This document shows, piece after piece, positions 9,065 to 24,801 of a stretch of 64,000 bases of DNA (within the stretch, counting starts at the first letter, position 1; every line of letters starts with the position of its first letter). The translations under genes and the position numbers were made by a program. The stretch is from Acidobacteriota bacterium (lineage in GTDB: Bacteria; Acidobacteriota; Vicinamibacteria; Vicinamibacterales; UBA8438). The notes under the pieces are model-generated. The model made no database searches, was not told where the DNA came from, and worked only from the letters and a program-made list of their open reading frames with translations. The DNA lies in contig VXME01000076.1 of NCBI GenBank assembly GCA_009861545.1, positions 75,325 to 139,324 on the forward strand, given 5' to 3'.

Positions 9065-9326
9065 CGAGTGGCAGCTCCGTTCACGTGTGCGCCGCAGTGC
9101 GCTTGCGGACGGTTCGAGAGTCGTGGGAACTATAGCGCAACGGGTTGGCACGTATGGCGCAACCTGGACTCCCGTCAAGCGCACCACGGCGCACGGTCAA
9201 TCAACGAGCGGGTGCCGAGATCGACACATCCCTGCCGTATCGTCGACTCTGGTACGCCTCGTGCGTTCATGCACCCGACAGCGGCGTTGCGGCTGCATGG
9301 CCGAGTTGCCATGTAGAGTACCAGTG

Positions 9327-11220: not shown

Positions 11221-11228
11221 TTGCAGCG

Positions 11229-12848
11229 ATGACCATGAAGATTCCCACGTTGCGGTGCCTCGTTTTCCTCGTGACGGTCTCGGTGCTCGGCACCGCCGCG
11301 GCCGCCGCCCAGGACCTGCGGATCGTGACCGCCGCCGCGGATCAGGACCGGGAGGCGGTGCTCGCGCTCCTCGATGAGGGGATCGACGTCAACACGGCAC
11401 GGCCCGACGGCGTGACCGCACTGCTCTGGGCGGCGCACCGGGACGACGTCGAGCTGGCGGAGCGGTTGCTCGCCGCCGGTGCCGACGTGAACGCGTCCGA
11501 CGACCACGGCGTGACCGCTCTGGAGCGCGCGGCCGAGAACGCGAGCGTCGCCATGGTCGAGACGCTGTTGGCGGCGGGCGCCGACGTCGACGCGGCGCAG
11601 ACCAGCGGGCTCACCCCCCTGATGACCGCTGCGCGAACCGGCGGCGCCGATGTGGTGCGCCGGCTCATCGCGGGCGGGGCGGACGCCAACGCCGCGGTGA
11701 CCGCGACCGGGAGCACGGCGCTGATGTGGGCGGTCTCGGAACGGCATCCCGAGGTCGTGCGGCTGCTGCTCGCCGCGGGCGCCGACCCGCGCGCCTCGAC
11801 GCTAAAGGGGTTCACGCCGCTGATGTACGCGGCCCGCAACGGCGACATCGCCGCCGCGGCGACGCTCATCGCGGCCGGCAGCGACGTCAACGAGCCGAGC
11901 GCCGACGGCACTCACGTGCTGCCGTTCTCGATAGTCAGCGGCCAGGACGCGTTCGCCCTGTACCTGCTGGACCAGGGCGCCGACCCCAACGGCGAGATGG
12001 GCGGCGTCTCCGCCCTGCACGCGGCGGCCGGCAACGTCAGTCCGTGGCTTCTCGAGTGGTATCGCCGCCACGGCCGCAACCGTCTCTATGCCGGTCTCGG
12101 GGGCGTGCGGTTGAGCGCGGCTCGCCGCCTTGCCCTGGTGGAGGCGCTGCTCGAGCGCGGGGCCGATCCGAACGGCCGGATCACCGCGTGGGCGATGATC
12201 ATGAACTACATCGGCTATCCGCGTAAGGGCGCCTTCGAACCCTTCGCCTGCGGTACCGGCGACCTTCGCGGCGCGACCCCGCTATGGGTGGCGGCCTACG
12301 ACATGAACGGCGCGCGGGGGCAGGCACACGTCTTCGCGGTGATGCCGAGCGCTACGACGACCGGCGTCGAGGTCATGCGGGCGTTGCTCGATGCGGGCGC
12401 CGACCTGCACCTGACGACCAGTGACGGGACGACTCCCCTGATGGCGGCGGCGGGTCTCGGCCCCGCCACCTACACGCCGCGCGAGCCCCGCGGCGTGCGA
12501 GCCCGCAGCTCGGAGCGCGCGGTCGAGTTCCTGCACCGCGCCGGCGCGGACATCAACGCCACCAACGAGGCGAACTTCACGGCGCTTCACGGCGCGGCGT
12601 TCCGCGGCATGAACGAGGTCATCGAGTACCTGGTGCAGAATGGCGCGGACATCGACGCCCGCGACTTCCGGGGCAGGACCGCCTACCGCATGGCCGAGGG
12701 CTCGAAGCAGTCGTTCCAGTTCCAGAGCTGGCCCGAGACGGCGGCGCTCCTCGCCCGGCTGGGGGCCAACACCGAGCTCGGGATCCCCGGCACGGTCCAG
12801 GAACGGCTGCGCGACATCCCGGTCGACGCCGCGAACGACCAGCCGTGA
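11229..12848 (+). CDS. secreted ankyrin-repeat protein (paralogue of 1324..2871)
   Basis: Signal MTMKIPTLRCLVFLVTVSVLGTAAAAAQ. Has repeated ANK units and a C-terminal region collinear with the first ankyrin protein (..FTALHGAAFRGMNEVIEYLVQNGADI..). Confidence 0.9.
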   Translation: MTMKIPTLRCLVFLVTVSVLGTAAAAAQDLRIVTAAADQDREAVLALLDEGIDVNTARPDGVTALLWAAHRDDVELAERLLAAGADVNASDDHGVTALERAAENASVAMVETLLAAGADVDAAQTSGLTPLMTAARTGGADVVRRLIAGGADANAAVTATGSTALMWAVSERHPEVVRLLLAAGADPRASTLKGFTPLMYAARNGDIAAAATLIAAGSDVNEPSADGTHVLPFSIVSGQDAFALYLLDQGADPNGEMGGVSALHAAAGNVSPWLLEWYRRHGRNRLYAGLGGVRLSAARRLALVEALLERGADPNGRITAWAMIMNYIGYPRKGAFEPFACGTGDLRGATPLWVAAYDMNGARGQAHVFAVMPSATTTGVEVMRALLDAGADLHLTTSDGTTPLMAAAGLGPATYTPREPRGVRARSSERAVEFLHRAGADINATNEANFTALHGAAFRGMNEVIEYLVQNGADIDARDFRGRTAYRMAEGSKQSFQFQSWPETAALLARLGANTELGIPGTVQERLRDIPVDAANDQP

Positions 12849-13895
12849 CGCTGCGCGCAACGGGACGACCAAAGAAGGCGCCGCCCGGCTATCCGTGGGA
12901 GGTGGTCGGCAGCACGCCGTACGCCGAGTCGTTCGACCTCGTGGCGGCCGACGACAACCTGAGCCGCGCCACGATCGAGGGCTGGGTCCAGCGTGCCACT
13001 GCCGAGGCCTTGTTCGAGATGGCGGGGCTCGACTTCGAGGAGGCGAAGCAGCAGGCGGCCTACCGCACGTTCGAGCCCATTCCGCTCGGGGTGACCGGGT
13101 CGCTGCGGATTCGGAACGAGCTGCGGCGCATCGACTCGCAGAACGTCATTGCGAAGATCGAGGGCAGCGGGGCCCCCGACGAGGTCGTCATGTACGTCGC
13201 CCACTGGGACCACATGGGCGTCGACCCGAGCCTGGAAGGCGATCAGATCTTCAACGGGGCGGCCGACAACGCCACCGGCACCGCCGGGCTCATCGAGATC
13301 GCGCGCGCGTTCACCCATGCGGAGGAGCCGCCGCGCCGGTCGATTCTGTTCCTCGCGGTGACGGCCGAGGAGCAGGGCCTGCTCGGATCGCGGCACTACG
13401 GGGAGAACCCGCTCTACCCGGCCGCGCAGACCGTCGCCGCGATCAATATGGACGTCCTCAACCAGTGGGGTCGGACGCGCGACATGACCATCGTCGGGGT
13501 GGGCCAGTCGGAGCTGGACGACGTGGCCGCCGACGTGGCCGCGCGCCTCGGACGCACCCTGGCGCCGGATCCGGAACCGGAGAAGGGCTTTCTACTACCG
13601 GTCGGACCACTTTTCGTTCGCCAAGGCGGGCATCCCCGCGTTCTACGGCGACCCCGGCGTGGAGTACATCGACAAGCCGGAGGGCTACGGCATCGAGAAG
13701 CGCACGGAGTACACGGTGAACGACTACCACAAGGTGTCGGACGAGGTGAAGCCCGACTGGGACCTGTCGGGGGCGCTCGAGGACCTGACGTTCATGTACC
13801 ACATGGGCGCCCGGCTCGCGGCGACCGACGAGTGGCCGGTGTGGAGCGAGACCAGCGAGTTCCGGGCGATCAGGGAGGCGCAGCGGCCGCAGTAG
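12845..13895 (+). pseudogene. M28 family metallopeptidase remnant (5'-truncated, one frameshift)
   Basis: M28 motifs VMYVAHWDHMG, NGAADNATG and FLAVTAEEQGLLGS are present. The frame changes at TTT 13589-13591, where EKGF|[20 protein letters not shown] continues in the 13659..13895 frame. There is no signal peptide or N-terminal/PA region. The ORF begins at a GTG overlapping the ankyrin stop. Confidence 0.75.
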
Positions 13896-13950: not shown

Positions 13951-15048
13951 TCAGCGGACCCGATGGCTGAGGCGGCGCCAGAAATCCGCTTCGTCGGTCG
14001 CGGCCAGCGCCGCCGCCGTCACCGTATCTCGCGGCGTGTCGACGAGGGTCGGTGCGCGCTGCATGAACGCGTCCGACACCCGCTTTCCGCGCGCTTGCAG
14101 CAGGCTCTGCACGGTCGCCGCCAGTTCCTCGGCGCGACCTTTCGCGAGGCCTTCCGCGTGACCCTGTGCAACGCCTTCCGCGCGGCCCTTTGCGACACCT
14201 TCGGCACGACCCTGCGCGACGCCTTCCGCCAGCTTGCGTTCGCCCAGCACGCGCCACAGCGGATCGTCGTCGGGACCGGTTCCCTCCCGCTCGCCGAGCG
14301 TCCGTCCCACGCGCTCCAGCACCCGGTAGGTCGCGGCCGACGACACCAGCTCGGTCAATGCGGCGTGGATTTCCTTCGCCGTCCAGCCCGGAAACGCCCC
14401 GCTCGTCCGCGCGTACTGGAACCGGCCGTTCACCAGCCGATGAATCGTCAACCCGGCGGGACGCCGCCGCGTGGCCCCCGGCGGCACGACCACCCACAGC
14501 TCGGGGAAGCCCCACGCCTCGTAGAGCAGCAGCTTGCCGGGTCGCACGTCGGTTGTATGGTCCACCTCGAGCACCACGTCCGGGAAGTCGTTCTCGCCGA
14601 TAATCAGGGACTTCACGGGCGTCGCAGCGCGCGTCGGGTGCAGGTAGAGCGTCTCGTCGGCCTCCATCGCCCGCTGGGCCCGGCCGTCGGCATCCCGCAC
14701 CAGCAGGGTGACCGATCCGTACGAGATGATCGGCGTGCCGCGCACCGAGGCGATTCGTTCCGCCAGGTGGGGTAGCCGCCGCGAGGTTCCTTCGTGAACG
14801 CCGTACTTGTCGGCAACCACCCAGGCGGTCCCGGTCCGGGCGTCCCAGTGCTCGATGCGGTCGTCGAAATCCGCGAACTCCTCCCGCGTGAGCGAGATGG
14901 GCTGGCAGCCCGGGAACCGGAGCGCCTCGTAGTCCACCGACTCGCCGCGCGGCGGGTCAGAGGCCGTTGCGTCTGGTGTTTGTGTTCCGTCGCCGCCGCG
15001 CGCGGACAGCGGCGGCAGGTCCGCGTGAGGCATTCCCCATGTTAGCAC
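13951..15048 (-). CDS. Uma2-family (DUF820) PD-(D/E)xK endonuclease fused to a DUF4351-like C-terminal repeat/helical domain
   Basis: Uma2-like core ..PDVVLEVDHTTD..., then the repeats AEGVAQGR/AEGVAKGR/AEGVAQGH/AEGLAKGR and a C-terminal helical tail. Alternative start ATG at 15033. Confidence 0.75.
   Translation of the reverse strand: MLTWGMPHADLPPLSARGGDGTQTPDATASDPPRGESVDYEALRFPGCQPISLTREEFADFDDRIEHWDARTGTAWVVADKYGVHEGTSRRLPHLAERIASVRGTPIISYGSVTLLVRDADGRAQRAMEADETLYLHPTRAATPVKSLIIGENDFPDVVLEVDHTTDVRPGKLLLYEAWGFPELWVVVPPGATRRRPAGLTIHRLVNGRFQYARTSGAFPGWTAKEIHAALTELVSSAATYRVLERVGRTLGEREGTGPDDDPLWRVLGERKLAEGVAQGRAEGVAKGRAEGVAQGHAEGLAKGRAEELAATVQSLLQARGKRVSDAFMQRAPTLVDTPRDTVTAAALAATDEADFWRRLSHRVR
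14134..14229 (-). repeat. 4 x 24-bp in-frame tandem repeat (AEGxAxGx octads) within the Uma2 fusion gene
   Basis: Read directly from sequence. A degenerate fifth unit lies at 14110-14133. Confidence 0.8.
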
Positions 15049-15086: not shown

Positions 15087-18000
15087 TCAGGGTGCTGAGA
15101 GTGTGGTTTTCGCCAACTCCAGGAAGCGGCAGAAGGGGTTGGCCAGGCGCATCTGTTCCGGGGTGCGGCAGTCCGGCGTGAGGAGGTCGGGACTGGCGAC
15201 GATGGCCGCCACGCAGCGGGCGCGGGAGGTGGCGACGTTGAGGCGGTGCAGGCTGTAGAGGAACGCCATCCCGCGCGGCGCCTCGTCGGCGGTCGAGGTG
15301 GCCATCGAGTAGATGGCGATCGACGCCTCCTGTCCCTGGAACTTGTCCACGGTGCCGACCCGTGCGCCTTCCGGCAGCGCCGCCCGCAGGGCTGCGACGT
15401 GCGCGTTATAGGGCGCCACGACCAGGATGTCCCGCAGCGTCAGCAGCTTCTGTTCACCTTCCTTGTCGATCCAGGCCGCGCCGGCGGCGAGCAGCTCGCC
15501 GAACAGCGCCGCGACGCGGTCGGCTTCCTCCGTTGAGGCGTTCGTGTTGCCGGCGTGCTCCACCGGTACGAAACGCAGGCCGTGTCCCGCCAGCGGGCCC
15601 GGTCCGACCACCGTCTGCCGAGCCAGCTCCGGGCGCGTGCCGAGCCGGCCCTCGTAGAACTGTTCCGTCGTGAACGCGCAGACTTCGGGGTGCATGCGCC
15701 AGGTGTGCTCGAGGAAGACGCCGCGGGACGGGCCGACGGTTGCCGATTCGCCCAGCAGGTGGCCGAGCGCCGAGACGTCGGCGCCGGGCGGGTGGACGCC
15801 CTGGATCGGCTGATCGAGCTGGCGCGGGTCGCCGAGCAGCACCAAGCTCTGCGCTGCCTGGCAGACGGCGAGGGTGTTGGCGAGGCTCATCTGGCCCGCC
15901 TCGTCGATCACCAGCACGTCCACCGCGTCGGCCATCTCCGGGCGGGACCACAGCCATGCGGTGCCGCCGGCGAGGTTGGCGTCGCCATTGGAGAGCGCCT
16001 CGGCCACTGTTTCGTTCGAGTGGGTCCGGACGATGCGTTCGTCCGGGCAGCCGTCGCCGTCGTTGGCCTTCTGGATCCCCCGGACATCGACAGCCGCGGG
16101 CTCGGCCGCCACGCCGCTTTGCTCGCGCCCGGGCCGCGCTCCTTCGCCGGGGCGCTCGTCCATCGCCCTGCACACGGCGCCGAGCAGGTTGGAGATCACC
16201 TTGTGGCTGTTGGCCGTCACGCCGACCCGCTTTCCGCCGGCCAGCAGGTCGAGGATCATCCGCGCGCCGGTGTAGGTCTTGCCGCTGCCGGGCGGTCCCT
16301 GCACCGGGAGGACGGAGCGGTCCAGCCGCGGGGCGATCCGCCGGACCGCATCCAGCGGTGCTTCTTCGGGAGCGACGAGGTTTTCGAGAGCAACGGCGTC
16401 TTCGGGAGCGGCGCCGTCCTCCAGAGGGAAGAGGCTCAGTGGATTGGCTCGAGGCTTCGCCGTCTCGAGACGCGGCGGCACGCGCCGCAGCAGGTCGAAG
16501 GCAGCACGACGCGCGCTCTCCGCCGCGAACCCGTCGGACGCCATGTCCCGGCCGAGGCGGAGCAGGCTGTCCCGCAACACCTGGCTGTTGACGGCGTCGA
16601 GCGGAACCAGTGCGGTCGGCTGGGGAACGGGCGAGTTGCGCCCGCGCTTCAGATCGATCGTGCGCTCCGCTTCGTCGAGCGCAACCACTGTCCCGCAGAA
16701 ACCCCGCTTGCGCTCGTCGGATTCGGCGGTGTCGGGGTTCTTCGGCGAGTCACCCACCTCGATCTCGTGCGTCTGCTCCGGGAAGCGGTATCGATGGACG
16801 ATCGACTTCTTGACCTGCCCCACCTCGCCCACGTAGCTGAGCGCGCCGAGCGTCGCCCGGCTGGCCACGTGCTCCTCCGCGCTGAAGCCGCAGCGGTCGA
16901 AGAACTCCCACCACATGGACTTCTCCTCGCGCCGGTGGAACTCCAGCAGGTGCGCCAGCAGCCGCCGCCCACGCTGCTCGTCGTCGAGTCCGTCGTCTCC
17001 CTCCGGCAGTCCAGCGGTGAGCGCCTCGAACAGCGCCGCGATCTCCGCCGCCGATTCCCGCTCCTGGTCGCGTTCTTCGTCCCGTACCGCGGGCCGCGGC
17101 ACTGGCTGTCCTGTCAACGCCTCCAGATCGTGCCGGCATCCCGCCAGCCACTCGGCCAGCCGCAGCGTCGACAGGCAGTCGTCGCGGTTGTAGCCCTCTA
17201 TCTCGGCGCGGAGGGCGTTCGCCGTGCCGTGCGCCTCGCCCGACTCCAGCGCCGCCTCGAACCGGACCAGCGCCCGTGTTGCGGTCGTCAGGTCGATCCG
17301 GCGCACGAAGCCGTAGAACGGCTCCAGCTTCTTGATGGAGTACCCCTCGACCGAGGCGCGCAGCCCCTGGCGGACCACCCGGTGCAGGTCGACGAAGACG
17401 CGCCCGCGCAGCAGCCGATCCACCTCTTCCTCGCGGGTGGCGTAGCGGCTCATCAGGCGCTTGACCGCGGTCGTCTCGTAGGCGCCGTAGTGGTAGATGT
17501 GGAAGCCCGGATACTCCCGCCAGCGCGCCGTGACGCGGTCGATGAAACGCTCGAACGCACGCTTCTCGGCCGGTTCGTCGAGCGCCCAGCAGCCGTCGTA
17601 TCTGCCGTGCCGATCCGCGGCCCCGAAGAGGTACTCGAACCCGCCGTTCATTGCGAAGGCATCGCCTTCGAGATCGAAGAAGAGGTCGCCCGGCGAGGTT
17701 TCCGGCAGCGCGGCGAGTCCCTTGTCTTCCTGGACCGGCGTGATCAGCTCGTGCATGCGCCGGCCTTCACGCCGTCCCTGATCCTGGATGCGCGCCTGCT
17801 CCCGGATCCGAAGCAGCGCGTCGTGGCTCACGCCGTCCGGCGGCGGAGACGCCGTCGGGTCGAGCGCCCCGAGACCCGCCATCGTCGTCACGCCCCGGTC
17901 GACCAGCTTGCGCCGCTGCCTGCGCGTGATCCCGGCGACCAGCGACAGGTGATCGTCAGTGCGTCGGCGATCCGCACAGCCCTGCTTCCAGTCGCAGAGC

Positions 18001-18716
18001 GCACAATGGTCGACCGGCTCCGGATAGGTGTCCGGCGGCTCCGCCGCGTGCGCCTCGAAGCGCCGGCGGACGGCGCGGTAGTACGCGGAGTACTCCACGA
18101 CCGGGAAGCTTGCTTCTCGAGGCCCGTCGCTGCCGCCGAGCGCCATGTGCATTCGCTCCGGCGTGGTGCCTTGCACCTGGGCCAGCAGGTCCGAATACAG
18201 CAGAAGCTGGAGCAGCGCCTCGCCCTTTGCGACGCGGGCCAGCTTCGCGTCGAGCACCTCGTACGACCAGCCGCCCAGCGCGCTTGCTTCGTCCACCCGG
18301 AGCAGGAAATCGGGATAGCCGCTCCACTGCCCGTCGTCGTCTTGCAGGCGCCCCTGGTAGACGACGTCGACCCCGCGCCGCATCGTTTCCCGGGTGCGCG
18401 CCGCGGCTTCCTCCGGGTCGCGCTCCGAGAACGGCGACTCGGGTGGCGTGACGATTTCCACGGCGCGGCCTTCTGCCGCGAACCGTTCCAGAAGGCGCCG
18501 TTCGTGCTCGATCCCGCGTTGCTTCAGGACCTCCGCGCGGGGGTCGTCGTACGGCGTCGGCCGCTCGATCTCCCCGAGCGCGGCGGCGCGGCGCAGGCCC
18601 GTCAGGTGGGCACAGGAGAGGTGGCGGCTGAGGTCGGTGGCGGAGAACAGGAGTCGGCCGTCGGCGTGGCGCATCGGGCGGGACGATAGCACGGGTTGTG
18701 ACGGAGGACCGGTCAC
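15087..18716 (-). CDS. RecB/Cas4-like nuclease (TM0106-type) + RNase H-like domain + SF1 (Upf1/Dna2-like) helicase fusion, 1209 aa
   Basis: The N-terminus has LFSATDLSRHLSCAHL plus CALCDWKQGC, a Cas4/AddB-style Cys cluster. FFDLEGD lies in the middle. The C-terminal helicase motifs are GPPGSGKTYT, VLVIDEAGQM, LLGDPRQL, VDKFQGQE and NVATSRAR. GTG start at 18716; alternative ATG at 18674. Confidence 0.85.
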   Translation of the reverse strand: MTGPPSQPVLSSRPMRHADGRLLFSATDLSRHLSCAHLTGLRRAAALGEIERPTPYDDPRAEVLKQRGIEHERRLLERFAAEGRAVEIVTPPESPFSERDPEEAAARTRETMRRGVDVVYQGRLQDDDGQWSGYPDFLLRVDEASALGGWSYEVLDAKLARVAKGEALLQLLLYSDLLAQVQGTTPERMHMALGGSDGPREASFPVVEYSAYYRAVRRRFEAHAAEPPDTYPEPVDHCALCDWKQGCADRRRTDDHLSLVAGITRRQRRKLVDRGVTTMAGLGALDPTASPPPDGVSHDALLRIREQARIQDQGRREGRRMHELITPVQEDKGLAALPETSPGDLFFDLEGDAFAMNGGFEYLFGAADRHGRYDGCWALDEPAEKRAFERFIDRVTARWREYPGFHIYHYGAYETTAVKRLMSRYATREEEVDRLLRGRVFVDLHRVVRQGLRASVEGYSIKKLEPFYGFVRRIDLTTATRALVRFEAALESGEAHGTANALRAEIEGYNRDDCLSTLRLAEWLAGCRHDLEALTGQPVPRPAVRDEERDQERESAAEIAALFEALTAGLPEGDDGLDDEQRGRRLLAHLLEFHRREEKSMWWEFFDRCGFSAEEHVASRATLGALSYVGEVGQVKKSIVHRYRFPEQTHEIEVGDSPKNPDTAESDERKRGFCGTVVALDEAERTIDLKRGRNSPVPQPTALVPLDAVNSQVLRDSLLRLGRDMASDGFAAESARRAAFDLLRRVPPRLETAKPRANPLSLFPLEDGAAPEDAVALENLVAPEEAPLDAVRRIAPRLDRSVLPVQGPPGSGKTYTGARMILDLLAGGKRVGVTANSHKVISNLLGAVCRAMDERPGEGARPGREQSGVAAEPAAVDVRGIQKANDGDGCPDERIVRTHSNETVAEALSNGDANLAGGTAWLWSRPEMADAVDVLVIDEAGQMSLANTLAVCQAAQSLVLLGDPRQLDQPIQGVHPPGADVSALGHLLGESATVGPSRGVFLEHTWRMHPEVCAFTTEQFYEGRLGTRPELARQTVVGPGPLAGHGLRFVPVEHAGNTNASTEEADRVAALFGELLAAGAAWIDKEGEQKLLTLRDILVVAPYNAHVAALRAALPEGARVGTVDKFQGQEASIAIYSMATSTADEAPRGMAFLYSLHRLNVATSRARCVAAIVASPDLLTPDCRTPEQMRLANPFCRFLELAKTTLSAP

Positions 18717-18826
18717 GCGGGCCTCGCGATGGGATCCGGATCGTTAGAGGCCATGTCCGGCGGCGTCTGGTACGATTCCGTCGTGGTGGGAGCTGCGATG
18801 AACCGTGGACCGGACGGCGCGACCGC

Positions 18827-19081
18827 ATGAGCCGAAGCCGGCTGCTTCTACAGCGGATTCTCGCCGGTCGCTCGGATGCGAATCTGCGCTTCGACGACCT
18901 GCGTGTCTTGCTCCGGGAACTTGGATTCATCGAACGCGTGCGGGGAAGCCATCACATATTCAGGAGGGAGGGTGTTACCGAGAGAATCAACTTGCAGCGT
19001 GACAATGGCCAGGCCAAGCCCTATCAGGTGCGGCAGGTGCGTCACGTGATCCTGAAGTACGGGCTGAAGGTGAACGAGTGA
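18827..19081 (+). CDS. hicA: HicA-family mRNA interferase toxin
   Basis: Start ATG 18827. FDDLRVLLRELGFIERVRGSHHIF and a KPYQVRQVRHVI-type C-terminus are typical of HicA (YcfA-like). Overlaps the next gene. Confidence 0.85.
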   Translation: MSRSRLLLQRILAGRSDANLRFDDLRVLLRELGFIERVRGSHHIFRREGVTERINLQRDNGQAKPYQVRQVRHVILKYGLKVNE

Positions 19082-19293
19082 TGTACAAGTACGAGATCAT
19101 TCTCTACTGGAGCAAGGTCGATGGCGTGTTCGTTGCCGAGGTGCCCGAGCTTCCCGGGTGCATGGCGCACGGCGACACGCAGGAAGCCGCTCTCGGTAAT
19201 GTCAACGAGGCGATGGAACTCTGGATCGATACGGCGAGAGAATCAGGTGACCCCATACCGGAGCCCAAGGGTGAACGTCTGATGTTGGCATAG
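19078..19293 (+). CDS. hicB: HicB-family antitoxin (UPF0150 fold, short form)
   Basis: YKYEIILYWSKVDGVFVAEVPELPGCMAHGDTQEAALGNVNEAMELWI. GTG 19078 or ATG 19081 overlaps the hicA stop. Confidence 0.85.
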   Translation: MMYKYEIILYWSKVDGVFVAEVPELPGCMAHGDTQEAALGNVNEAMELWIDTARESGDPIPEPKGERLMLA

Positions 19294-19342
19294 CGAAGAC
19301 GGCCGCCGCTCATCGTGTCGAGCATCCGGGAGGGGGGCTGTC

Positions 19343-20140
19343 GTGAGGGTGGAAGGACTCGCGGCCCGGGTCACGCCCGACTCGTGTCGGGACCCGGTGC
19401 CGGGACCAGATTGGTTCGGTACGTTGGCCGAATGGAGCGTTCTCGATTCGGATGCCGTCTCGGAGTTGCAGGAACGTGGCTTTGCGATCCTTCCCAGCGC
19501 GGTGCCGTCCGGCGAGATGGAACAGTTGGTTGCTGCCTACCACCGGGTGGAGGCTTTGGCGACGGGCGACGACGTCAGTATCGGCAGCACTTCGACGAGG
19601 GTGACCGACTTCGTCAATCGCGGGGCGGAGTTCGGTCGACTGTACGTGTTGCCGCAGCTGCTCGACGCGTGCTGCCGCGTCATCGCAAGACCGTTCAAGC
19701 TCAGCACGCTGCACGCACGGACGCTGCCGCCGGGCGCGGCCGCCCAGGCCCTGCACGTCGACGTAGGGCGACACTCGTCCGAGTGGCCGCTCATGGGCTT
19801 CATCCTGAGGGTCGATGACTTTCGGCCGGACAACGGCGCGACGCGGTTCGTTCCGGGTTCGCATCGGTGGCCACGTGCGCCCCGGGACTCGATGGCCGAT
19901 GTGACGGTAGAACACGACGAGCAGGTATTGGCCTGCGGCTCTGCCGGGTCGCTGGTGGTCTTCAACGGGTCGACGTGGCACGGCCACACGGCCAATGTAT
20001 CGAACGAGCCGCGACGATCGCTCCAGGGCGCGTTCGTTCCCCGGGACGGTCGCGCAGCAACCGACTTCGCGGCCCGCATGCAATCGGAGACGCGCAAACG
20101 GCTTGGCCCGCTCGCGCGGTACGTGCTTGCGCTAGGATGA
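19343..20140 (+). CDS. phytanoyl-CoA dioxygenase (PhyH) family Fe(II)/2-oxoglutarate oxygenase
   Basis: GTG start. HxD in ALHVDVG, GATRFVPGSHRW and the distal His in STWHGHTAN. Confidence 0.8.
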   Translation: MRVEGLAARVTPDSCRDPVPGPDWFGTLAEWSVLDSDAVSELQERGFAILPSAVPSGEMEQLVAAYHRVEALATGDDVSIGSTSTRVTDFVNRGAEFGRLYVLPQLLDACCRVIARPFKLSTLHARTLPPGAAAQALHVDVGRHSSEWPLMGFILRVDDFRPDNGATRFVPGSHRWPRAPRDSMADVTVEHDEQVLACGSAGSLVVFNGSTWHGHTANVSNEPRRSLQGAFVPRDGRAATDFAARMQSETRKRLGPLARYVLALG

Positions 20141-20153
20141 TTGAGGGTCTCTC

Positions 20154-20408
20154 GTGCATCTTGATGACGATTCACTGCTCGCCGAACCGGGCATCCGGCG
20201 AGCGTTCGCCACGGCGCTGTATCGCGACCGCAGCCTGTCGCTCGGACAGGCCGCGCGATTCTCGGAGCTCAGCATCGCCGAGTTCATCCGGCACGTGTCT
20301 CGGCTCGGGATTCCTGTCGTCGGTGGCACTTCGGACACCGTCCGCGAGGACGCCGAGGCGATCATCGAATGGCGGGGCGGCTCGTCGCAGCCGACGCGAG
20401 CCCGTTGA
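20154..20408 (+). CDS. UPF0175 family antitoxin-like protein
   Basis: RRAFATALYRDRSLSLGQAARFSELSIAEFIRHVSRLGIPV is the typical UPF0175 HTH pattern. Confidence 0.75.
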   Translation: MHLDDDSLLAEPGIRRAFATALYRDRSLSLGQAARFSELSIAEFIRHVSRLGIPVVGGTSDTVREDAEAIIEWRGGSSQPTRAR

Positions 20409-20419
20409 TAGGCCCTGTC
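20369..20419 (+). pseudogene. 17-codon remnant of a DUF3368 (PIN-like) toxin gene, fused in frame to the DUF2283 gene
   Basis: MAGRLVAADASPLIG matches the characteristic N-terminus (..vvDasPLIaL..) of the DUF3368 partners of UPF0175. It overlaps the UPF0175 3' end as intact pairs do, and the sequence then switches to DUF2283. Confidence 0.45.
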
Positions 20420-20635
20420 ATGAAGCTGCACTACTACGCCGACACCGATAGTCTTTATGTTGAGTTGAAGTCATCATCAGGGACGGAGACGCGCGAGGTC
20501 GCGAGTGGGTTCAACGTTGACCTCGATGCCAACGGAGAGGTCGTGGGGTTCGACATCGACCATGCCTCCAGGCGCCTCGAGCTCTCGACGCTGGAGACGA
20601 GAGCGCTGCCCATCCAGGTGTACAGGGCCGGGTGA
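20420..20635 (+). CDS. DUF2283 domain protein
   Basis: MKLHYYADTDSLYVELKSSSG...NVDLDANGEVVGFDIDHAS is the canonical DUF2283 pattern. Confidence 0.75.
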   Translation: MKLHYYADTDSLYVELKSSSGTETREVASGFNVDLDANGEVVGFDIDHASRRLELSTLETRALPIQVYRAG

Positions 20636-20689
20636 AGGCGTGTTGACCAAGCGCCCCTGGAGAGTGTGACTCGGACGTCAGGAGACAAG

Positions 20690-21586
20690 ATGGCGATTCC
20701 GGACTACCAGACCATCATGTTGCCTTTGCTTGAAGTGGCTGGGGACAACGAGGTTCATCGGGTTCGGGATGCGGTGGACGATCTTGCCGAGCGCTTCAGG
20801 CTCACCGAGGAGGAGAGGCAACAACTGATGCCTGATGGCCGGCGGGCCAGATTCAAGTACAACGTCGCCTGGTCCCGAACCTACCTGAAGAAGGCTGGTC
20901 TGCTGGAGGATCCTCGGCGCGGAGAATTCCGGATCACCCAACGAGGTCGTAAGGTTCTTGCTGGCAAGCCCGCTAGAATCGACACCAAGCTCCTTCAGAA
21001 GTTCAAGGAGTTCAAGGACTTCATCGGCAAGGACCAGTCGTCAATGCAAGGGGGGACAGACCCCGAGTTGACGCCGGAGGAGGCTATACAGGCTGCTCAC
21101 ACGACGCTGCAAAAGAGTCTTGCAGCAGACCTTCTCGATCAAGTGAAACGGGCGTCTCCTGCCTTCTTTGAGCAGCTTGTAGTAGATGTCCTGGTCCACA
21201 TGGGCTACGGAGGTTCGCGGCAGGAAGCGGGGGAGGCCATCGGGCAGGCGGGAGACGAAGGCATCGACGGCATCATCAAGGAGGACCGTCTGGGTCTGGA
21301 CATCATCTACATTCAAGCCAAGCGTTGGGCGAATACCGTGGGGCGTCCTGAGGTGCAGAGGTTTGCCGGCGCCCTGGCAGGAAAACGAGCACGCAAGGGC
21401 GTCTTCATAACAACGTCCTCGTTCTCCGGCGAGGCGGTAGCCTATGCGGCCAGCATTGAGACCAAGGTAATCCTCATCGCGGGGGCACAGCTCGCGGAGT
21501 TGATGATCGACTATGGGGTCGGCGTCACGACCGAAGCCACGTACGAGCTGAAGCGAATCGATGCGGACTACTTTGCCGATGAATGA
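20690..21586 (+). CDS. mrr: Mrr-type restriction endonuclease (Mrr_N winged helix + Mrr catalytic domain)
   Basis: ATG 20690 follows GGAGA. MAIPDYQTIMLPLLEVAG (Mrr_N) and the catalytic core GDEGIDGII...IYIQAKRW are present. Confidence 0.9.
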   Translation: MAIPDYQTIMLPLLEVAGDNEVHRVRDAVDDLAERFRLTEEERQQLMPDGRRARFKYNVAWSRTYLKKAGLLEDPRRGEFRITQRGRKVLAGKPARIDTKLLQKFKEFKDFIGKDQSSMQGGTDPELTPEEAIQAAHTTLQKSLAADLLDQVKRASPAFFEQLVVDVLVHMGYGGSRQEAGEAIGQAGDEGIDGIIKEDRLGLDIIYIQAKRWANTVGRPEVQRFAGALAGKRARKGVFITTSSFSGEAVAYAASIETKVILIAGAQLAELMIDYGVGVTTEATYELKRIDADYFADE

Positions 21587-21659
21587 CCACGGATGGTCGT
21601 ATCCAAGGCTGACGGAAGACGAAACCTCAGAAAGTGAGCCGATGTGTGGCGTCGGTGCG

Positions 21660-24600
21660 TCACTCCAGCAGACCGGCCATCGCGGTTGCCGCATCGAGGC
21701 CGCCGTCCGACTCGGAGAGATGCTGCCGCTGCGTGCCGGTGAGCCACTCCACCTGGCTGCCGGTGGCATGGCGTGTCACCGCGAGGACGTGTTCGACCTG
21801 TTCCGCTACCGCGCGGACGTGGGAGATCACGCCCACCATGCGGCCGCCGGCCGCTACGGTGTTCAGCGCTTCGACCGCCGTGTCGAGATTGTTGCGATCC
21901 AGAGAGCCGAATCCCTCGTCCAGGAACAGCGATTCCAGCCGGCCGCCGCTGCGCGCCATCATCTCGACCATGCCGAGCGCGAGCGACAGCGAGGCGATGA
22001 ACTGTTCGCCGCCGGACAGGCTGGCCGGGGATCGGTCCTGGCCGGAATCCGCATCCAGCACGCGCCACTGTTCGTCGGCGTCGCCGGGATCCACGAAAGC
22101 GTACTTGCCGTTGCTCATCTCGCCGAGCATCCGCGACGCGTGAACCAGGAGGCGTCGCGAGCGCCGTAGCGTCAGCCATTTCAGGAAGGCGCCCGGCTTC
22201 AGGGCGTCCTCCAGGTCGCCCAGCGCCCGTTCCCTTCCCAGAACCTCCTGGAGCAGCGTGCGCAGGCGGCGGACGTCGTCGATGATCGCTGCGAAGTGCT
22301 CTGCCGACTCCCTGGCGCGGCGCTCGGCGAAGCGGGCGTCGTCGGCCCGCGCGCGTGCGGCGGCCACGACCGCCTCGATATCGCGGACGTCGATCTCGGC
22401 GCCCAGCCGTTCGGCGAGGGCGGCGAGCGCCTCGCGGGCGGCGGCGGCCTTGTCGGAAGCGGCCCGTGAATGCTCGTCGGCGGAGCGGGCCGTCCCCGCG
22501 GCCTGCCTGCCGATCTCGCCGATATGCGACTCCAGCGCCGCCGCGTTTCTCGCCGAGACGGCCGCGGGGACGTTCGTGTCGAGGCCCAGCCGGCTGACCG
22601 ACTCGACGAGGAGGTCGCGGTGGGCATGGAGGTCCGCGACCAGCGCGTCGATGGGCGCGTCAACGTCGTTCGCCCGCCGGGTCGCCAGCGTCGAGCGGGC
22701 TTCTCGAACGCCGTCGAGCTCATGTCGCAGGCGGTCCTGCTCGCGCTTTCGCGCCCCCAGGACCTGGGCGCGCTGCTGTGCCGACCCGGTCCGCTCGCCG
22801 ACTGGGCCCAGATCCACTTCGTGCAGATCCGCAACGTCGGCAGGCAGATCCAGGCCGGGCCGGAACGGCTGCGGAATGGTCCGTATCGTCGCAAGTAGTC
22901 TCTCCAGGGCTTTCTCACCGGTTCGCCGGGTACGCTCGACCAGCGCTCTCGCGTTGGAGGCGGCCTCCTGAGCCACGCCCGCGGCCTTGTCCTGCCGGGT
23001 AGCGTTCTCCCGCAAGTCCTCGCCGACGCGATCGTGCTCGGCCAGGCGCTCGGCGGTCTCCTTGCGCGTTGCCTCCAGAGGGGCGATCAAGGCGTCCCGC
23101 GTGGGAAGCGGTGCGGCGGTGTCGAGTTCGACTTCCCGCGCCAACTCCTGCAGAGCGTTCCGGAATCGAGTCCCGGACGCGGTGCGTCTGGCCTCGGTGT
23201 CGGCCATCTGGCGTTGGATACCTTTTCGCTCGGCGTCGAGTGACGTTGCCCGGCCGGCTGCTTTTCTCGCGGCATCGTGCGCCGCCTTGGCGACCTGCCG
23301 GGCCTCGGTGAGTCTCATGCCGTCGGGCGCCTCCCAGTCGGCGGTGAGACGGCGGCGGCAGATCGGACAGGCGTCGCCCGGGTGCAGATCGTGCGCCGCG
23401 GCCGCCGCCGATTCCGCACGCTGCGCGACGGCCAGATGCTCGTCGGCGCTTGCGGCCTCCAGCGTCGCGCGGCGCTCCGACTCCCGTGCCGATTCCAGCC
23501 CTCGCCCGCAATCGGCTTCCTCCGTCCGGAGTACATCTGCCTGCTTGCGGACGTGGTCCAGCTCGGCGGCAAGCTCGGCGCAGCGAGCGTGTTTTTGCTC
23601 GACGGAGGCCCGGCGCTCGTTCGCCGTCCGCGCGGCCTCGTCCAGAGGCGGGCGTTTGGCGGCGTGTTCCTCGTCCTGCTTCTCCGCGTCCGCAGCGCTC
23701 TCGGCCGCGTGCTGTGCCTCGGTCTGCGTCTTCGCCGCGTCCTCCACGCTGGCGCGGAGCGTGGCGGCGGCTTCCTCACCGGCCTTCGCGAGGGAGGGCA
23801 GGCCTTGCAGCGTTGTCAGGGCCGCCGTGACCGCTTCGCTTGTCGGGCCGTCGTCGGCCGGGATGCGAGCCAGTGCGTCCTCCAGGTGCGCCTGACGCTC
23901 CTTCAGTGCCGCGTCTTCCGCGGCGAGCTGTCGTTCGATGGCAGCGATGGGCGCCAGCCGGCCGGCGGCCTGCTCGGTATCCAGAGCGCGCAGCCGCTCG
24001 GCGACGTCGGAGGCCGTTTGCCGCGCCTTGTCCGCCGCCAATACGGCCTCGCGGCCGGCGGATGCCGCCTGCTCGTCGTCGGATGCCGCCGCCGCCAGCC
24101 GTCGGGCCGTCTCCGCGGTCTCCTGGAGGTGCTTCAGATGAGATGCAGGATCTTCCGGATACCCCGACGCGGCCTGCTCCAGTTGAATCCGCAGCGTCTC
24201 GGTCTCCCGCCGCGCCTTGCCGGCCAGCTCTCCGGCCTCCTCCAGCTCGTCGGTGCGCCATACCTGCCGCAGTATTCGGCTCCGGTCGCGCGGCTCGTCC
24301 TCCACCAGCAGGCGCGCGAAACGGCCTTGTGGGAGGACGACGGTGCGCAGGAAGGCATCGCTGTCGAGTCCCAGGAGTTCCTCGATGCGCTCGTTGACGC
24401 GCCGGACCTGCTCGACCTGCTCGACCGTCGCGTCGTCGTCGCCGACTCGCCGAAGCAGTGCCCGTACCTGGCCGACGTCGCCCTGGCCGCCGCGTCGCAG
24501 CGTACGGGTCACCTCCCAGGTCTCGCCGGATACCCGGAACCGCAGCACGACCCGCAGGTGGACCGACGTGTCGTTCATCAGCTCCTGGTTGGCGCGCGCC

Positions 24601-24800: not shown

Positions 24801-24801
24801 C

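What the first reader, a model, noticed from the sequence alone, without database searches (positions are those of the whole stretch)
15087..18716. 1209-aa Cas4/RecB-like nuclease + RNase H-like + Upf1/Dna2-type SF1 helicase fusion next to a Uma2 nuclease: candidate single-protein nuclease-helicase immunity factor
Seen: the N-terminal PD-(D/E)xK-type region has a Cys pattern (C...CxxCxxxxxC) like Cas4/AddB iron-sulfur nucleases. A central FFDLEGD segment follows, then a complete SF1 helicase motif set (GPPGSGKT, DEAGQ, GDPRQL, QGQE, TSRAR). It lies between a Uma2-family nuclease fusion and hicAB. Established: this architecture is annotated as a TM0106-type RecB-like nuclease/helicase with no assigned biology. 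Nuclease-helicase single proteins such as Nhi act in phage defence. Inference: in this context it may be a defence protein rather than a repair enzyme.
Basis: partly seen in the sequence, partly recalled or inferred. Interest (0 to 1): 0.55.

Follow-up and report, generated by a model that had tools for sequence, protein, structure and literature searches.

The report
Dna2-like nuclease–exonuclease–helicase fusion gene
This is a real gene for a 1,195-residue enzyme that joins an iron-sulfur nuclease, a proofreading-type exonuclease and a DNA motor; it is an ordinary member of a very large, already named family of unknown role, and a link to anti-phage defence shows up across the family but is not demonstrated by this locus.

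Summary
Window 15087-18674 (- strand) encodes a protein with three parts. They are a Cas4/RecB-type nuclease with four invariant Cys, a DEDD RNase H-like exonuclease (PF13482), and an Upf1/Dna2-type SF1B helicase. The likely start is ATG 18674, giving 1195 aa, not GTG 18716. The N-terminal half matches TIGR03491 (TM0106 family). A confident model (pLDDT 89) matches mouse Dna2 best in the PDB.

The family is very large and keeps its full length. It has no conserved neighbour in 86 loci and spreads between phyla. 59 plasmids carry full-length copies; phages almost never do.

Support for defence is mixed. Relatives lie beside BREX, Type III R-M, McrBC and Qat systems, and plasmid copies lie among mobile-element and nuclease genes. 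Actinobacterial relatives lie among housekeeping genes. In this window's own clade the gene is compositionally native and holds a fixed position (six of nine loci). It lies between a NurA-HerA-SbcCD operon and peptidase genes, next to an insertion hot spot. So hicAB, Mrr and Uma2 nearby say little about its function.

It is not a member of the Nhi family. The closest characterised analogue is Geobacillus Bad (bacterial DNA2-like). Verdict: a known kind, a plausible but unproven defence role, moderate interest.

The parts
15087..18674 (-). Complete coding sequence of the nuclease-exonuclease-helicase. It is 1195 aa from ATG 18674, with the stop codon at 15087-15089.
   Evidence: ORF and translation. 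GC3 is 0.88. Homologues of 1195 aa align from M1. The upstream alignment is conserved up to the ATG.
17940..18674 (-). Cas4/RecB-type PD-(D/E)xK nuclease with a predicted 4Fe-4S 'iron staple' (aa 1-245, Met15 numbering). Key residues are C21, C224, C227 and C233; D122; D142-x-K144; and Q156...Y160.
   Evidence: TIGR03491 covers aa 12-510. PDDEXK_1 is weak. C224, C227, C233, D122, D142, K144, Q156 and Y160 are invariant in the 141-sequence alignment, and C21 is invariant among 35 sequences and at least 90% among 141. The fold is modelled at high confidence. Dna2 is the top PDB match.
17754..17939 (-). Short two-helix, helix-hairpin-helix-like element (LVAGIT...) and a long linker helix (aa 246-307). 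It is a probable DNA-binding element.
   Evidence: Helices 251-259, 265-269 and 284-303 in the model. D241, H242 and L243 are conserved. The HhH assignment is my inference from the sequence pattern.
17100..17753 (-). RNase H-like, DnaQ/PolB-exonuclease-type 3'-5' exonuclease domain (aa 308-525). Predicted catalytic residues are D334, E336, E400 and Y495...D499.
   Evidence: PF13482, 3.7e-21. These residues are at least 90% conserved in 141 sequences. Majorek et al. 2014 place COG2251/PF13482 in the 3'-5' exonuclease clade.
16365..17099 (-). Helical 'stalk' plus a small beta-barrel (aa 526-770), as found N-terminal to the motor in Upf1/Dna2-type helicases. It includes a disordered loop at aa 741-761.
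   Evidence: No Pfam hit. The model shows helices 540-604, strands 613-678 and helices 698-730. Foldseek alignments to Upf1, Ighmbp2 and Dna2 extend over about 700-1300 columns.
15090..16364 (-). SF1B (Upf1/Dna2-like) helicase core, domains 1A and 2A (aa 771-1195). Motifs are Walker A GPPGSGKT (K799), DEAGQ (D924, E925), GDPRQL, QGQE and TSRAR.
   Evidence: AAA_30, AAA_11 and AAA_12. PDB sequence hits to Ighmbp2, Upf1, Setx, Sen1 and Dna2. Foldseek. The motifs are invariant.
18675..18716 (-). A 42-nt block directly upstream of the ATG, conserved in this clade. It contains an extended -10-like TGCTATCGT that ends 8 nt before the ATG. It may be the gene's own promoter and would give a nearly leaderless mRNA.
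   Evidence: Alignment of six syntenic relatives. The two-hexamer sigma-70 scan found nothing here, so this is inference only.

Best explanation
The gene encodes a self-contained DNA-end-processing machine of the Dna2/Bad type.

Proposed mechanism:
- An SF1B motor moves 5'->3' on single-stranded DNA.
- It drives that strand through an N-terminal Cas4/RecB-type iron-sulfur nuclease placed ahead of it, as in Dna2 and Bad.
- A DEDD exonuclease inserted between the two can trim the complementary 3' end.
- Together these would let one polypeptide load at a free end or 5' flap and degrade both strands.

It needs no dedicated partner and appears to have its own promoter.

The most likely biological role for the family is an accessory genome-guarding nuclease that attacks the free ends or replication intermediates of incoming or replicating foreign DNA. 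That makes it defence-type, acting alone or alongside R-M-like systems. In this bacterium the gene is an old, vertically inherited resident next to an insertion hot spot, not recently acquired cargo.

Shown here: the domain set, conserved catalytic residues, fold, absence of a conserved partner, horizontal spread, plasmid carriage and defence-rich neighbourhoods in many relatives. Inferred: polarity, substrates, two-strand degradation and the defence role.
For: Architecture:
- Domains and their active sites are present. Most predicted catalytic residues are invariant and the rest at least 90% conserved.
- The model is confident, pLDDT 89.1 and pTM 0.87. Dna2 structures 5EAN, 5EAW and 5EAX are the top PDB matches, E about 1e-25, spanning nuclease and helicase.
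- Bad has the same layout and nearly the same spacing: D150 and K815 of 1245 aa, against D142 and K799 of 1195 aa here. It has an Fe-S cluster, ssDNA endonuclease activity, and 5'-3' translocase and helicase activity that prefers 5' overhangs. Its gene sits next to a Type III-like methyltransferase, and its authors proposed a restriction role.

Genomic behaviour:
- No neighbour family is shared by more than 7 of 86 loci.
- The NJ tree mixes phyla; Acidobacteriota appear in at least 4 places.
- 59 plasmids carry full-length copies, and 26 of the 69 plasmids with a match are conjugative.
- There are 0 full-length copies in 50,697 phage genomes. There are about 7 in 2.9 M IMG/VR contigs, and the match reaches the start of the contig in two of them.

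Neighbourhoods:
- BREX lies divergently adjacent.
- Type III Res-Mod-UvrD lies directly upstream, with QatABCD nearby.
- McrC, NERD-helicase and WYL genes are adjacent in several loci. PIN, AAA_15 with DUF4276, a DISARM-like helicase with DUF1998 (MZB), SoFic and AbiEii occur in others.
- By my rough count, about 20 of 141 nearest-neighbour proteins hit PADLOC models at E<1e-10, including JetD, Cas3, SngA, SoFic and REase_II.
- Plasmid copies lie in mobile-element and nuclease-rich contexts.

Evolutionary rate:
- The protein evolves about 3 times faster than the adjacent housekeeping genes. Between L001 and L090 it is 78% identical, against 92-94% for the S9 peptidase and DHDPS.
Against: - In this clade the gene holds a fixed position in 6 of 9 loci at 75-94% identity. 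It has host-like GC3 of 0.88, while the adjacent hicAB and Mrr genes have 0.70-0.74. That behaviour is more typical of a resident repair gene than of defence cargo.
- It sits next to a NurA-HerA-SbcD-SbcC end-resection operon.
- Actinobacterial relatives are flanked by DeaD, an MFS transporter and an acylphosphatase.
- Some loci show no defence gene. Others have DNA ligases nearby.
- No PADLOC model matches beyond the helicase core.
- I could not compute an enrichment against a matched control.
- In Bad, the D150A mutation abolished all observed ssDNA degradation. That enzyme therefore showed no second nuclease activity under those conditions.
Confidence: 0.45

Rival explanations
1. It is a housekeeping or accessory DNA-repair enzyme. 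In this reading a Dna2-like end-resection or flap-processing nuclease-helicase works in double-strand-break repair, possibly alongside the neighbouring NurA-HerA-SbcCD machinery. The defence genes nearby are there only because the gene borders an insertion hot spot.
For: - The position next to NurA (PF09376), a HerA-like gene, SbcD and SbcC is fixed in 5 of the 6 syntenic loci.
- Codon composition is native.
- L089 holds chimeric remnants of this gene and of sbcC inside the islet. This suggests that islets are exchanged by recombination in the flanking backbone genes.
- An SbcD gene lies 1 kb away in an unrelated Maricaulaceae locus.
- Three loci have an ATP-dependent ligase candidate within about 1 kb, picked by a ligase sequence motif, and a fourth has one at 2.4 kb. 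Pfam confirmed two ligases among the nearest neighbours.
- Actinobacterial subfamilies are in stable housekeeping contexts.
- Dna2 is the closest solved structure.
Against: - The gene is separated from the SbcCD operon by a variable 3-kb islet of opposite-strand genes, and it has its own conserved upstream block.
- The SbcCD link is not seen outside this clade apart from one locus.
- The family is patchy, transferred between phyla and carried on conjugative plasmids.
- It often lies inside clear defence islands.
- It evolves faster than neighbouring housekeeping genes.
Confidence: 0.3
2. It is one subunit of a larger restriction-like system. In this reading the nuclease-helicase is the effector and works with a methyltransferase or other partner encoded nearby, as the authors proposed for Bad. 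It is inert or different on its own.
For: - Bad genes always neighbour a Type III-like Mod gene in Geobacilli.
- L093 has Res-Mod-UvrD directly upstream on the same strand, with an 80-bp gap.
- Type III Res or Mod genes lie within 10 kb in L027, L030 and L058.
- The Ensifer plasmid has an apparent operon of an SNF2 helicase, a Sacsin/HATPase-like protein and this gene.
- WYL regulators lie 23-99 bp upstream in three loci.
Against: - No partner family recurs in more than 7 of 86 loci.
- In this window there is no methyltransferase or candidate partner. The only gene on the same strand that could be co-transcribed, the Uma2-like gene, is missing in 2 of 6 syntenic relatives.
Confidence: 0.1
3. 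It serves mobile elements rather than the host. Possible roles are processing of transferred or replicating plasmid or ICE DNA, or countering host nucleases. In that case it reaches chromosomes as element cargo.
For: - 59 plasmids carry full-length copies, and 26 of the 69 plasmids with a match are conjugative.
- A copy lies next to repABC, flanked by a recombinase and an integrase fragment.
- TrwB/TrwC, IS21 and integrase genes occur among neighbours.
Against: - Most copies are chromosomal, many in stable positions without element genes.
- It is not consistently linked to relaxase or replication genes.
- It is nearly absent from viruses.
Confidence: 0.08

Closest known systems
Bad, the bacterial DNA2-like helicase-nuclease of Geobacillus stearothermophilus (Wilkinson et al., NAR 2020, PMC7430649)
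   Same: It has the same three-part order: an Fe-S RecB-type nuclease, a long central region and an SF1B helicase. Size and spacing are nearly the same (D150 and K815 of 1245 aa, against D142 and K799 of 1195 aa). It is a monomeric stand-alone protein with sporadic distribution and a suspected link to restriction.
   Different: The authors found no recognisable domain in Bad's central region, and D150A removed all detected nuclease activity. Here the central region is a clear PF13482 DEDD exonuclease with conserved catalytic residues. Bad was described as rare, whereas this family is very large. I could not obtain the Bad sequence, so direct homology is untested.
Eukaryotic Dna2 (mouse structures 5EAN, 5EAW, 5EAX)
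   Same: It is the best structural match in the PDB. It has an Fe-S Cas4-like nuclease N-terminal to a beta-barrel, stalk and SF1B helicase, and it threads 5' ssDNA through the nuclease towards the motor (mechanism as summarised in PMC7430649).
   Different: Sequence identity is only 13-14% and TM-scores are 0.34-0.39. Dna2 has no DEDD exonuclease insert. It is essential and universal in eukaryotes and works with RPA, whereas this gene is patchy and mobile.
TM0106 / COG2251 / YprB-like two-domain nucleases (TIGR03491; RNase H-like clade F.13 of Majorek et al. 2014)
   Same: The N-terminal 510 residues match TIGR03491 end to end, well above the cut-off. The pairing of a DUF83/Cas4-like domain with a PF13482 exonuclease is the same, and the frequent tandem AAA (helicase) extension was already noted.
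   Different: There is nothing to set it apart; it is a typical member. The family has no tested function.
Nhi (nuclease-helicase immunity, Staphylococcus epidermidis SERP2475)
   Same: It is also a single polypeptide with an N-terminal PD-(D/E)xK nuclease and an SF1B-like helicase. It is plasmid-borne, horizontally spread and found near defence genes.
   Different: Nhi is 606 aa, with an HsdR-like nuclease lacking the Fe-S Cys pattern, a DUF2075 (PF09848) helicase and a glyoxalase-like C-terminus. The present protein has no PF09848 hit and carries an extra exonuclease domain.
RecBCD, AddAB and AdnAB end-resection complexes
   Same: This is a likely functional analogy. Each combines motor(s) with RecB-type nuclease(s) at DNA ends. 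AddB has the same iron-staple nuclease. RecBCD also destroys linear phage DNA (established knowledge).
   Different: Those are multi-subunit machines with SF1A motors and Chi regulation. Here there is one chain, a single SF1B motor and a DEDD exonuclease. The recD model hit is only 19 bits against a cut-off of 310.

Membership tests
TM0106-family RecB-like nuclease (TIGR03491 / COG2251) with C-terminal helicase | Full-length match to TIGR03491 above NCBI's curated cut-off | tested here: met
   2.7e-79 and 267.3 bits against a cut-off of 97.45. Profile positions 3-462 of 462 are matched.
TM0106-family RecB-like nuclease (TIGR03491 / COG2251) with C-terminal helicase | PF13482 RNase H-like (DEDD) domain following a Cas4/DUF83-like nuclease | tested here: met
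   PF13482 scores 76.2 bits against a cut-off of 22. D334, E336, E400, Y495 and D499 are at least 90% conserved in 141 sequences.
TM0106-family RecB-like nuclease (TIGR03491 / COG2251) with C-terminal helicase | Tandem P-loop (AAA_11/AAA_12) helicase extension | tested here: met
   AAA_12 scores 84.6 bits and AAA_11 42.9 bits. All of the top 150 cluster representatives are about 1100-1200 aa.
DNA2-like helicase-nucleases (Dna2, Bad) | 'Iron-staple' RecB nuclease: one N-terminal Cys plus a C-terminal CxxCxxxxxC flanking nuclease motifs I-III and QxxxY | tested here: met
   C224, C227, C233, D122, D142, K144, Q156 and Y160 are invariant in the 141-sequence alignment, and C21 is invariant among 35 sequences and at least 90% among 141. 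The metal cluster itself cannot be tested here.
DNA2-like helicase-nucleases (Dna2, Bad) | Nuclease placed N-terminal to an SF1B helicase, with overall fold similarity to Dna2 | tested here: met
   Foldseek's top three PDB hits are Dna2, E from 1.6e-25 to 5.9e-24, with about 1300 aligned columns. TM-scores are only 0.34-0.39.
DNA2-like helicase-nucleases (Dna2, Bad) | Sequence homology to Bad (WP_053413574), including its central domain | not tested
   The Bad sequence could not be obtained with these tools. Only residue positions from the paper could be compared.
DNA2-like helicase-nucleases (Dna2, Bad) | 5'-3' ssDNA translocation, ssDNA endonuclease activity and a preference for 5' flaps or overhangs | not testable with these tools
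   This is biochemistry. It is inferred from the SF1B motifs and the Dna2/Upf1 fold.
Nhi (nuclease-helicase immunity) | DUF2075 (PF09848) SF1 helicase domain | tested here: not met
   No PF09848 hit at E<=0.01. The feature is as defined in bioRxiv 10.1101/776245.
Nhi (nuclease-helicase immunity) | Protein of about 600 aa with an HsdR-like PD-(D/E)xK N-terminus and no exonuclease insert | tested here: not met
   The protein is 1195 aa with a Cas4-like Fe-S nuclease plus PF13482.
Hna and other catalogued helicase-nuclease defence proteins (Hhe, Mokosh MkoA/MkoC, DpdJ, ProA) | Full-length match to the system's protein model | tested here: not met
   PADLOC and NCBIfam hits cover only helicase motifs. 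MkoA matches aa 988-1174, Hhe and ProA match about 36 residues, and all are far below the cut-offs. No model named Nhi or Hna matched at E<=10. I could not confirm that PADLOC 2.0.0 contains such models.
Anti-phage defence gene (operational definition) | Homologues enriched next to known defence genes relative to background | tested here: inconclusive
   Many defence-rich loci were seen. Actinobacterial loci look like housekeeping contexts. No matched control could be computed.
Anti-phage defence gene (operational definition) | Protection against phage on expression, lost in catalytic mutants | not testable with these tools
   This needs an experiment.

The most novel reading that the evidence does not exclude
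The TM0106-helicase family would be a very widespread, not yet catalogued single-gene immune nuclease. It is found in several thousand protein clusters in most bacterial phyla and on conjugative plasmids. It would use a Dna2-like threading nuclease, a DEDD exonuclease and an SF1B motor in one chain to destroy both strands of foreign DNA from free ends. It would also be related to the unexplained Bad enzyme.
Probability: 0.4. Interest if true: 0.6.

Novelty: new member of a known kind. Interest (0 to 1): 0.4.

Why it matters
If the family proves to be defensive, it would add a very common single-protein system to the catalogue. It would also give the orphan Bad/DNA2-like enzymes a biological role. 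And it would show a compact one-chain counterpart of RecBCD/AddAB-type end destruction. If it proves to be a repair enzyme, it would be a bacterial Dna2 analogue lying beside an archaeal-type NurA-HerA-Mre11-Rad50 operon, which bears on how bacteria that lack or supplement RecBCD resect DNA ends. In either case this particular gene is a typical family member, so the value lies in the family-level question and not in this locus.

Tried and rejected
- The first structure model, from a 58-sequence alignment at 66-95% identity, was unusable (pLDDT 52). It was replaced after a second homologue search.
- Full-text search for 'TM0106' returned only corrosion papers. A search on Pfam names was swamped by human RNASEH2 papers. 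A search for follow-ups on Bad was too broad.
- I tried to reach Bad-like sequences through weak plasmid hits. The haloarchaeal hit I examined is a 783-aa protein that matches the query only over the helicase region, so it is not Bad-like.
- My own seed-based scan for defence genes in 80 loci used single-sequence phmmer and was too insensitive. It flagged 15 of 80 loci and missed proteins that PADLOC had found, so I use it only for named examples.
- Uma2 as an obligate partner is rejected: it is absent in 2 of 6 syntenic relatives and in all distant loci.
- The SbcCD operon as a co-transcribed partner is rejected because of the intervening opposite-strand islet.
- A canonical sigma-70 promoter or an intrinsic terminator for the gene was not found.
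- The 1044-aa antisense ORF at 15555-18689 is rejected as a shadow ORF (GC3 0.76).

Full report
**The observation**

The - strand ORF at 15087-18716 is real. It is a genuine gene and not one of the many chance ORFs of this 70% G+C window. Its third-position G+C is 0.88, like the surrounding housekeeping genes. The 1044-codon ORF on the opposite strand has 0.76 and a non-coding pattern.

Profile searches confirm each domain:
- TIGR03491 'TM0106 family RecB-like putative nuclease' over the first 510 residues (2.7e-79, 267 bits against a cut-off of 97)
- PF13482 RNase_H_2 (3.7e-21)
- a weak PDDEXK_1 hit
- AAA_30, AAA_11 and AAA_12 helicase domains

PDB sequence matches are confined to the helicase and are all Upf1-like SF1B enzymes: Ighmbp2, Upf1, Setx, Sen1 and Dna2.

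The start is probably ATG 18674, not GTG 18716. The closest homologues are 1195 aa and align from Met1. DNA conservation among six syntenic relatives runs right up to that ATG. Residue numbers below count from that Met.

**Anatomy**

In an alignment of 141 homologues at 44-95% identity, the following are invariant or more than 90% conserved:
- the four cysteines C21, C224, C227 and C233
- nuclease residues D122, D142, K144, Q156 and Y160
- exonuclease residues D334, E336, E400, Y495 and D499
- every helicase motif

All three catalytic centres are therefore under purifying selection.

A first AlphaFold model from a shallow alignment was useless (pLDDT 52). With the deeper alignment the model is confident (pLDDT 89.1, pTM 0.87). 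It shows, in order:
- a Cas4-like nuclease (aa 1-245)
- a short two-helix element that looks like a helix-hairpin-helix, plus a linker helix (my reading)
- the RNase H-like domain (about 308-525)
- a helical stalk and a small beta-barrel (526-770)
- helicase domains 1A and 2A

Foldseek against the PDB puts the three mouse Dna2 structures first (E 1.6e-25 to 5.9e-24, about 1300 aligned columns). Upf1, Ighmbp2, Setx, Sen1 and nsp13 helicases follow. The protein is thus a Dna2-type nuclease-helicase with a DEDD exonuclease inserted between nuclease and barrel.

**The family**

The protein is a typical member of a very large family.
- One search found 6815 proteins at E<=1e-10. The top 120 are 66-94% identical, and most align over the full length.
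- A search of 1.84 billion cluster representatives found 3242 at E<=1e-30. Nearly all of the best 150 are full length (39-57% identity, about 1100-1200 aa).
- Sources name these proteins 'TM0106 family RecB-like putative nuclease', 'predicted RecB family nuclease' or, in actinobacteria, 'bifunctional RecB family nuclease/DEAD/DEAH box helicase'.
- Species-level genomes with a homologue span Acidobacteriota, Chloroflexota, Thermotogae, alpha-, beta- and gamma-proteobacteria, Bacteroidota, Actinomycetota, Verrucomicrobia, Myxococcota, Pelagibacteraceae and Legionella.
- Majorek et al. 2014 had already described COG2251 as a predicted 3'-5' exonuclease joined to a DUF83/Cas4-like nuclease, 'frequently' with tandem AAA domains, and uncharacterised.

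**Genomic behaviour across the family**

I called genes in 86 loci and clustered all flanking proteins. No neighbour family occurs in more than 7 loci, so the gene has no obligate partner.

A distance tree shows some vertical blocks: Pseudonocardiales, Micrococcales, Chloroflexota and Bacteroidota. It also shows clear mixing. Acidobacteriota appear in at least four places, a Thermotogae sequence groups with an Acidobacteriota one, and Steroidobacteraceae group with Bradyrhizobium.

59 plasmids carry full-length copies, and 26 of the 69 plasmids with a match are conjugative; Rhizobium, Sphingobium and Piscirickettsia are the commonest hosts. Among 50,697 phage genomes there is no full-length copy. 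Among 2.9 million IMG/VR contigs there are about seven, and the match reaches the start of the contig in two of them.

**Neighbourhoods**

Some annotated loci are plainly defence islands:
- One copy (48% identity) lies back-to-back with a type 1 BREX cluster.
- Another (46%) lies 80 bp downstream of Type III Res-Mod-UvrD and a few kb from an integrase and QatABCD.
- Others lie beside AbiEii with Mrr and a methylase, SoFic with AAA_15 and several PIN toxins, or AAA_15-DUF4276 with a helicase and a DUF1998 (MZB) protein that looks DISARM-like.
- McrC, NERD-helicase and WYL/WCX regulators are immediate neighbours in several unrelated genomes.

In the first 38 diverse loci I scanned the four nearest genes. 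By my rough count, about 20 of 141 proteins hit PADLOC models at E<1e-10. The hits include JetD, Cas3, SngA, SoFic, REase_II, NERD+UvrD and several PDC candidates. That count includes regulators and candidate systems and has no matched control.

Plasmid copies lie among VapBC, integrase, SNF2 and HNH genes (Roseomonas). One sits in an apparent operon with an SNF2 helicase and a Sacsin/HATPase-like protein next to repABC (Ensifer). Another sits among dynamin-like, WYL and HD genes (Pseudomonas luteola).

The second half of the loci is mostly actinobacterial, and its neighbours are mainly housekeeping genes. They include MFS transporters, acylphosphatase, the DeaD RNA helicase, DJ-1 and MarR, with partial synteny within Arthrobacter and within mycobacteria. 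One further locus has no recognisable defence gene. A few loci have ATP-dependent DNA ligases next door.

**This window's own lineage**

Six of the nine closely related loci share one backbone: the window, L001, L002, L089, L090 and L091, at 75-94% protein identity. The backbone is NurA, HerA-like, SbcD, SbcC, a variable islet, this gene, sometimes Uma2, then an M28 peptidase, an S9 peptidase and DHDPS.

The islet differs from genome to genome:
- the window: HicA, HicB, PhyH, UPF0175, DUF2283 and Mrr
- L002 and L090: only HicB, with one extra 46-aa ORF in L090
- L091: an integrase and a transposase instead

The islet genes have foreign composition (GC3 0.70-0.80, regional G+C 0.62-0.66). The nuclease-helicase gene looks native. 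L089 even carries chimeric remnants of this gene and of sbcC inside its islet. That is what islet exchange by recombination in the flanking backbone genes would leave.

So in this bacterium the gene is an old resident that borders an insertion hot spot.

The protein does evolve about three times faster than the neighbouring enzymes. Between L001 and L090 it is 78% identical, against 92-94% for the S9 peptidase and DHDPS.

The Uma2-like gene lies 38 bp downstream on the same strand with no terminator between them. It is absent from two of the six syntenic relatives.

**Comparison with known systems**

Nhi is a 606-aa protein with an HsdR-like nuclease, a DUF2075 helicase and a glyoxalase-like tail. 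The present protein lacks DUF2075 and differs in size, nuclease type and domain count. It may work somewhat like Nhi, but it is not a family member.

PADLOC and NCBIfam defence models (MkoA, MkoC, DpdJ, Hhe, ProA, PLuB) touch only the helicase core.

The closest characterised enzyme is Bad, the 'bacterial DNA2-like' protein of Geobacillus stearothermophilus. It is 1245 aa, with an Fe-S RecB nuclease (D150), an unexplained central domain and an SF1B helicase (K815). It has ssDNA endonuclease activity, 5'-3' translocase and helicase activity with a preference for 5' overhangs, and it extrudes ssDNA loops. Its gene always lies next to a Type III-like methyltransferase, which led its authors to suggest a new kind of restriction enzyme. 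They also mention a 'second class' in Mycobacteria and Rhodococcus.

The spacing of catalytic residues is almost the same as here (665 against 657 residues between nuclease motif III and Walker A). I could not obtain the Bad sequence, so homology of the central region is untested. The authors reported no recognisable domain there and no nuclease activity left in the D150A mutant.

**Mechanism and role**

By analogy with Dna2 and Bad, the SF1B motor should load on a 5' single-stranded tail and push it through the iron-sulfur nuclease. The conserved DEDD domain should remove the opposite 3' end. The result would be a one-chain enzyme that destroys DNA from free ends. This is inference from fold and motifs.

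For the biological role I weigh the family-wide evidence on one side. That evidence is the stand-alone gene, horizontal spread, plasmid carriage, recurrent defence-island and R-M neighbours, near-absence from phages and faster evolution. On the other side I weigh the lineage-level evidence. That evidence is the fixed position, native composition, adjacency to an end-resection operon, housekeeping contexts in actinobacteria, and no match to any validated defence family.

My estimates are:
- a defence-type role: 0.45
- a repair role: 0.3
- a role as the effector of a multi-gene restriction-like system: 0.1
- a role serving a mobile element: 0.08

**Verdict**

The domain interpretation is correct. 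The gene is a new member of a known, named kind. Interest is moderate (0.4) and attaches to the family-level question, not to this locus.

Noticed in passing
window 21660-28891 (- strand): A four-gene operon of archaeal type for DNA-end resection. It comprises a NurA-domain protein (27908-28891, PF09376), a HerA-like ATPase of about 615 aa (26055-27902, weak HerA and mad8 hits), SbcD/Mre11 (24802-26058) and SbcC/Rad50 (21660-24800). The full operon is present in four of the five syntenic relatives. SbcC is only 57-75% identical between genomes, while HerA is 90-98%.
   Followed up: partly
window about 18700-21600; compare L001, L002, L089, L090, L091: An insertion hot spot between sbcC and the nuclease-helicase gene. 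The window holds HicA, HicB, PhyH, UPF0175, DUF2283 and Mrr, at lower G+C (0.62-0.66). Relatives hold other sets, and L091 has an integrase and a transposase. In L089 the islet contains chimeric fragments of the nuclease-helicase gene (aa 1-118 and 769-835) fused to an sbcC fragment.
   Followed up: partly
window 12872-13892 (+ strand): The M28 peptidase that flanks the gene in all relatives is a remnant here. Only residues 210-549 are left, with a frameshift near residue 450-470. The S9 peptidase and DHDPS genes that follow in relatives were not found anywhere in the window.
   Followed up: partly
window 8925-12848 (+ strand): An inserted block of lower G+C. It holds an AAA_21/AAA_15 ATPase that matches the PADLOC candidate PDC-M07A (1.5e-56). 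The real start is probably well inside the 574-codon ORF. Two short ORFs follow (10646-10816 and 10789-11220) that look like one interrupted small partner gene but have no Pfam hit. Then comes an ankyrin-repeat protein with a hydrophobic N-terminal segment that may be a signal peptide (PDC-M72A-like).
   Followed up: partly
window 13951-15048 (- strand): A Uma2-like gene (weak Pfam hit) lies 38 bp downstream of the nuclease-helicase gene with no terminator between them. Its C-terminus carries tandem (A/K)EGVA(Q/K)GRAEG-type repeats. It is present in 4 of the 6 syntenic loci and is 84-86% identical among them.
   Followed up: partly
L021, L026, L037 (WYL); L027, L030, L058, L093 (Type III R-M); L032, L037, L038 (McrBC): Recurrent but non-universal neighbours of distant homologues. 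WYL/WCX regulators lie 23-99 bp upstream on the same strand. Type III Res or Mod genes lie within 10 kb, which echoes the Type III-like Mod gene next to Geobacillus bad. McrC genes are adjacent or within 5 kb.
   Followed up: partly
L087 1113-11369 (Ensifer adhaerens plasmid pCTYH.Ch1_3): An apparent four-gene operon: a 184-aa protein, an SNF2-family helicase (1071 aa), a 1034-aa protein with a Sacsin/HATPase-like domain, and the TM0106-helicase. Gaps are 0-12 bp. It is flanked by a recombinase and an integrase fragment next to repABC. It could be an uncatalogued multi-gene system.
   Followed up: no
BFVD entry E3T4R0 (Cafeteria roenbergensis virus): A 594-aa giant-virus 'YprB ribonuclease H-like domain-containing protein' matches the model over about 595 columns (TM 0.50 on the target). 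It is the only entry in the 50 viral hits listed that is annotated as a nuclease rather than a helicase or replicase. Which part of the model it aligns to was not checked.
   Followed up: no
window 15555-18689 (+ strand): A 1044-codon ORF runs antisense to the gene. Its composition (GC1 0.88, GC3 0.76) marks it as a shadow ORF of the high-G+C coding strand, not a gene.
   Followed up: yes
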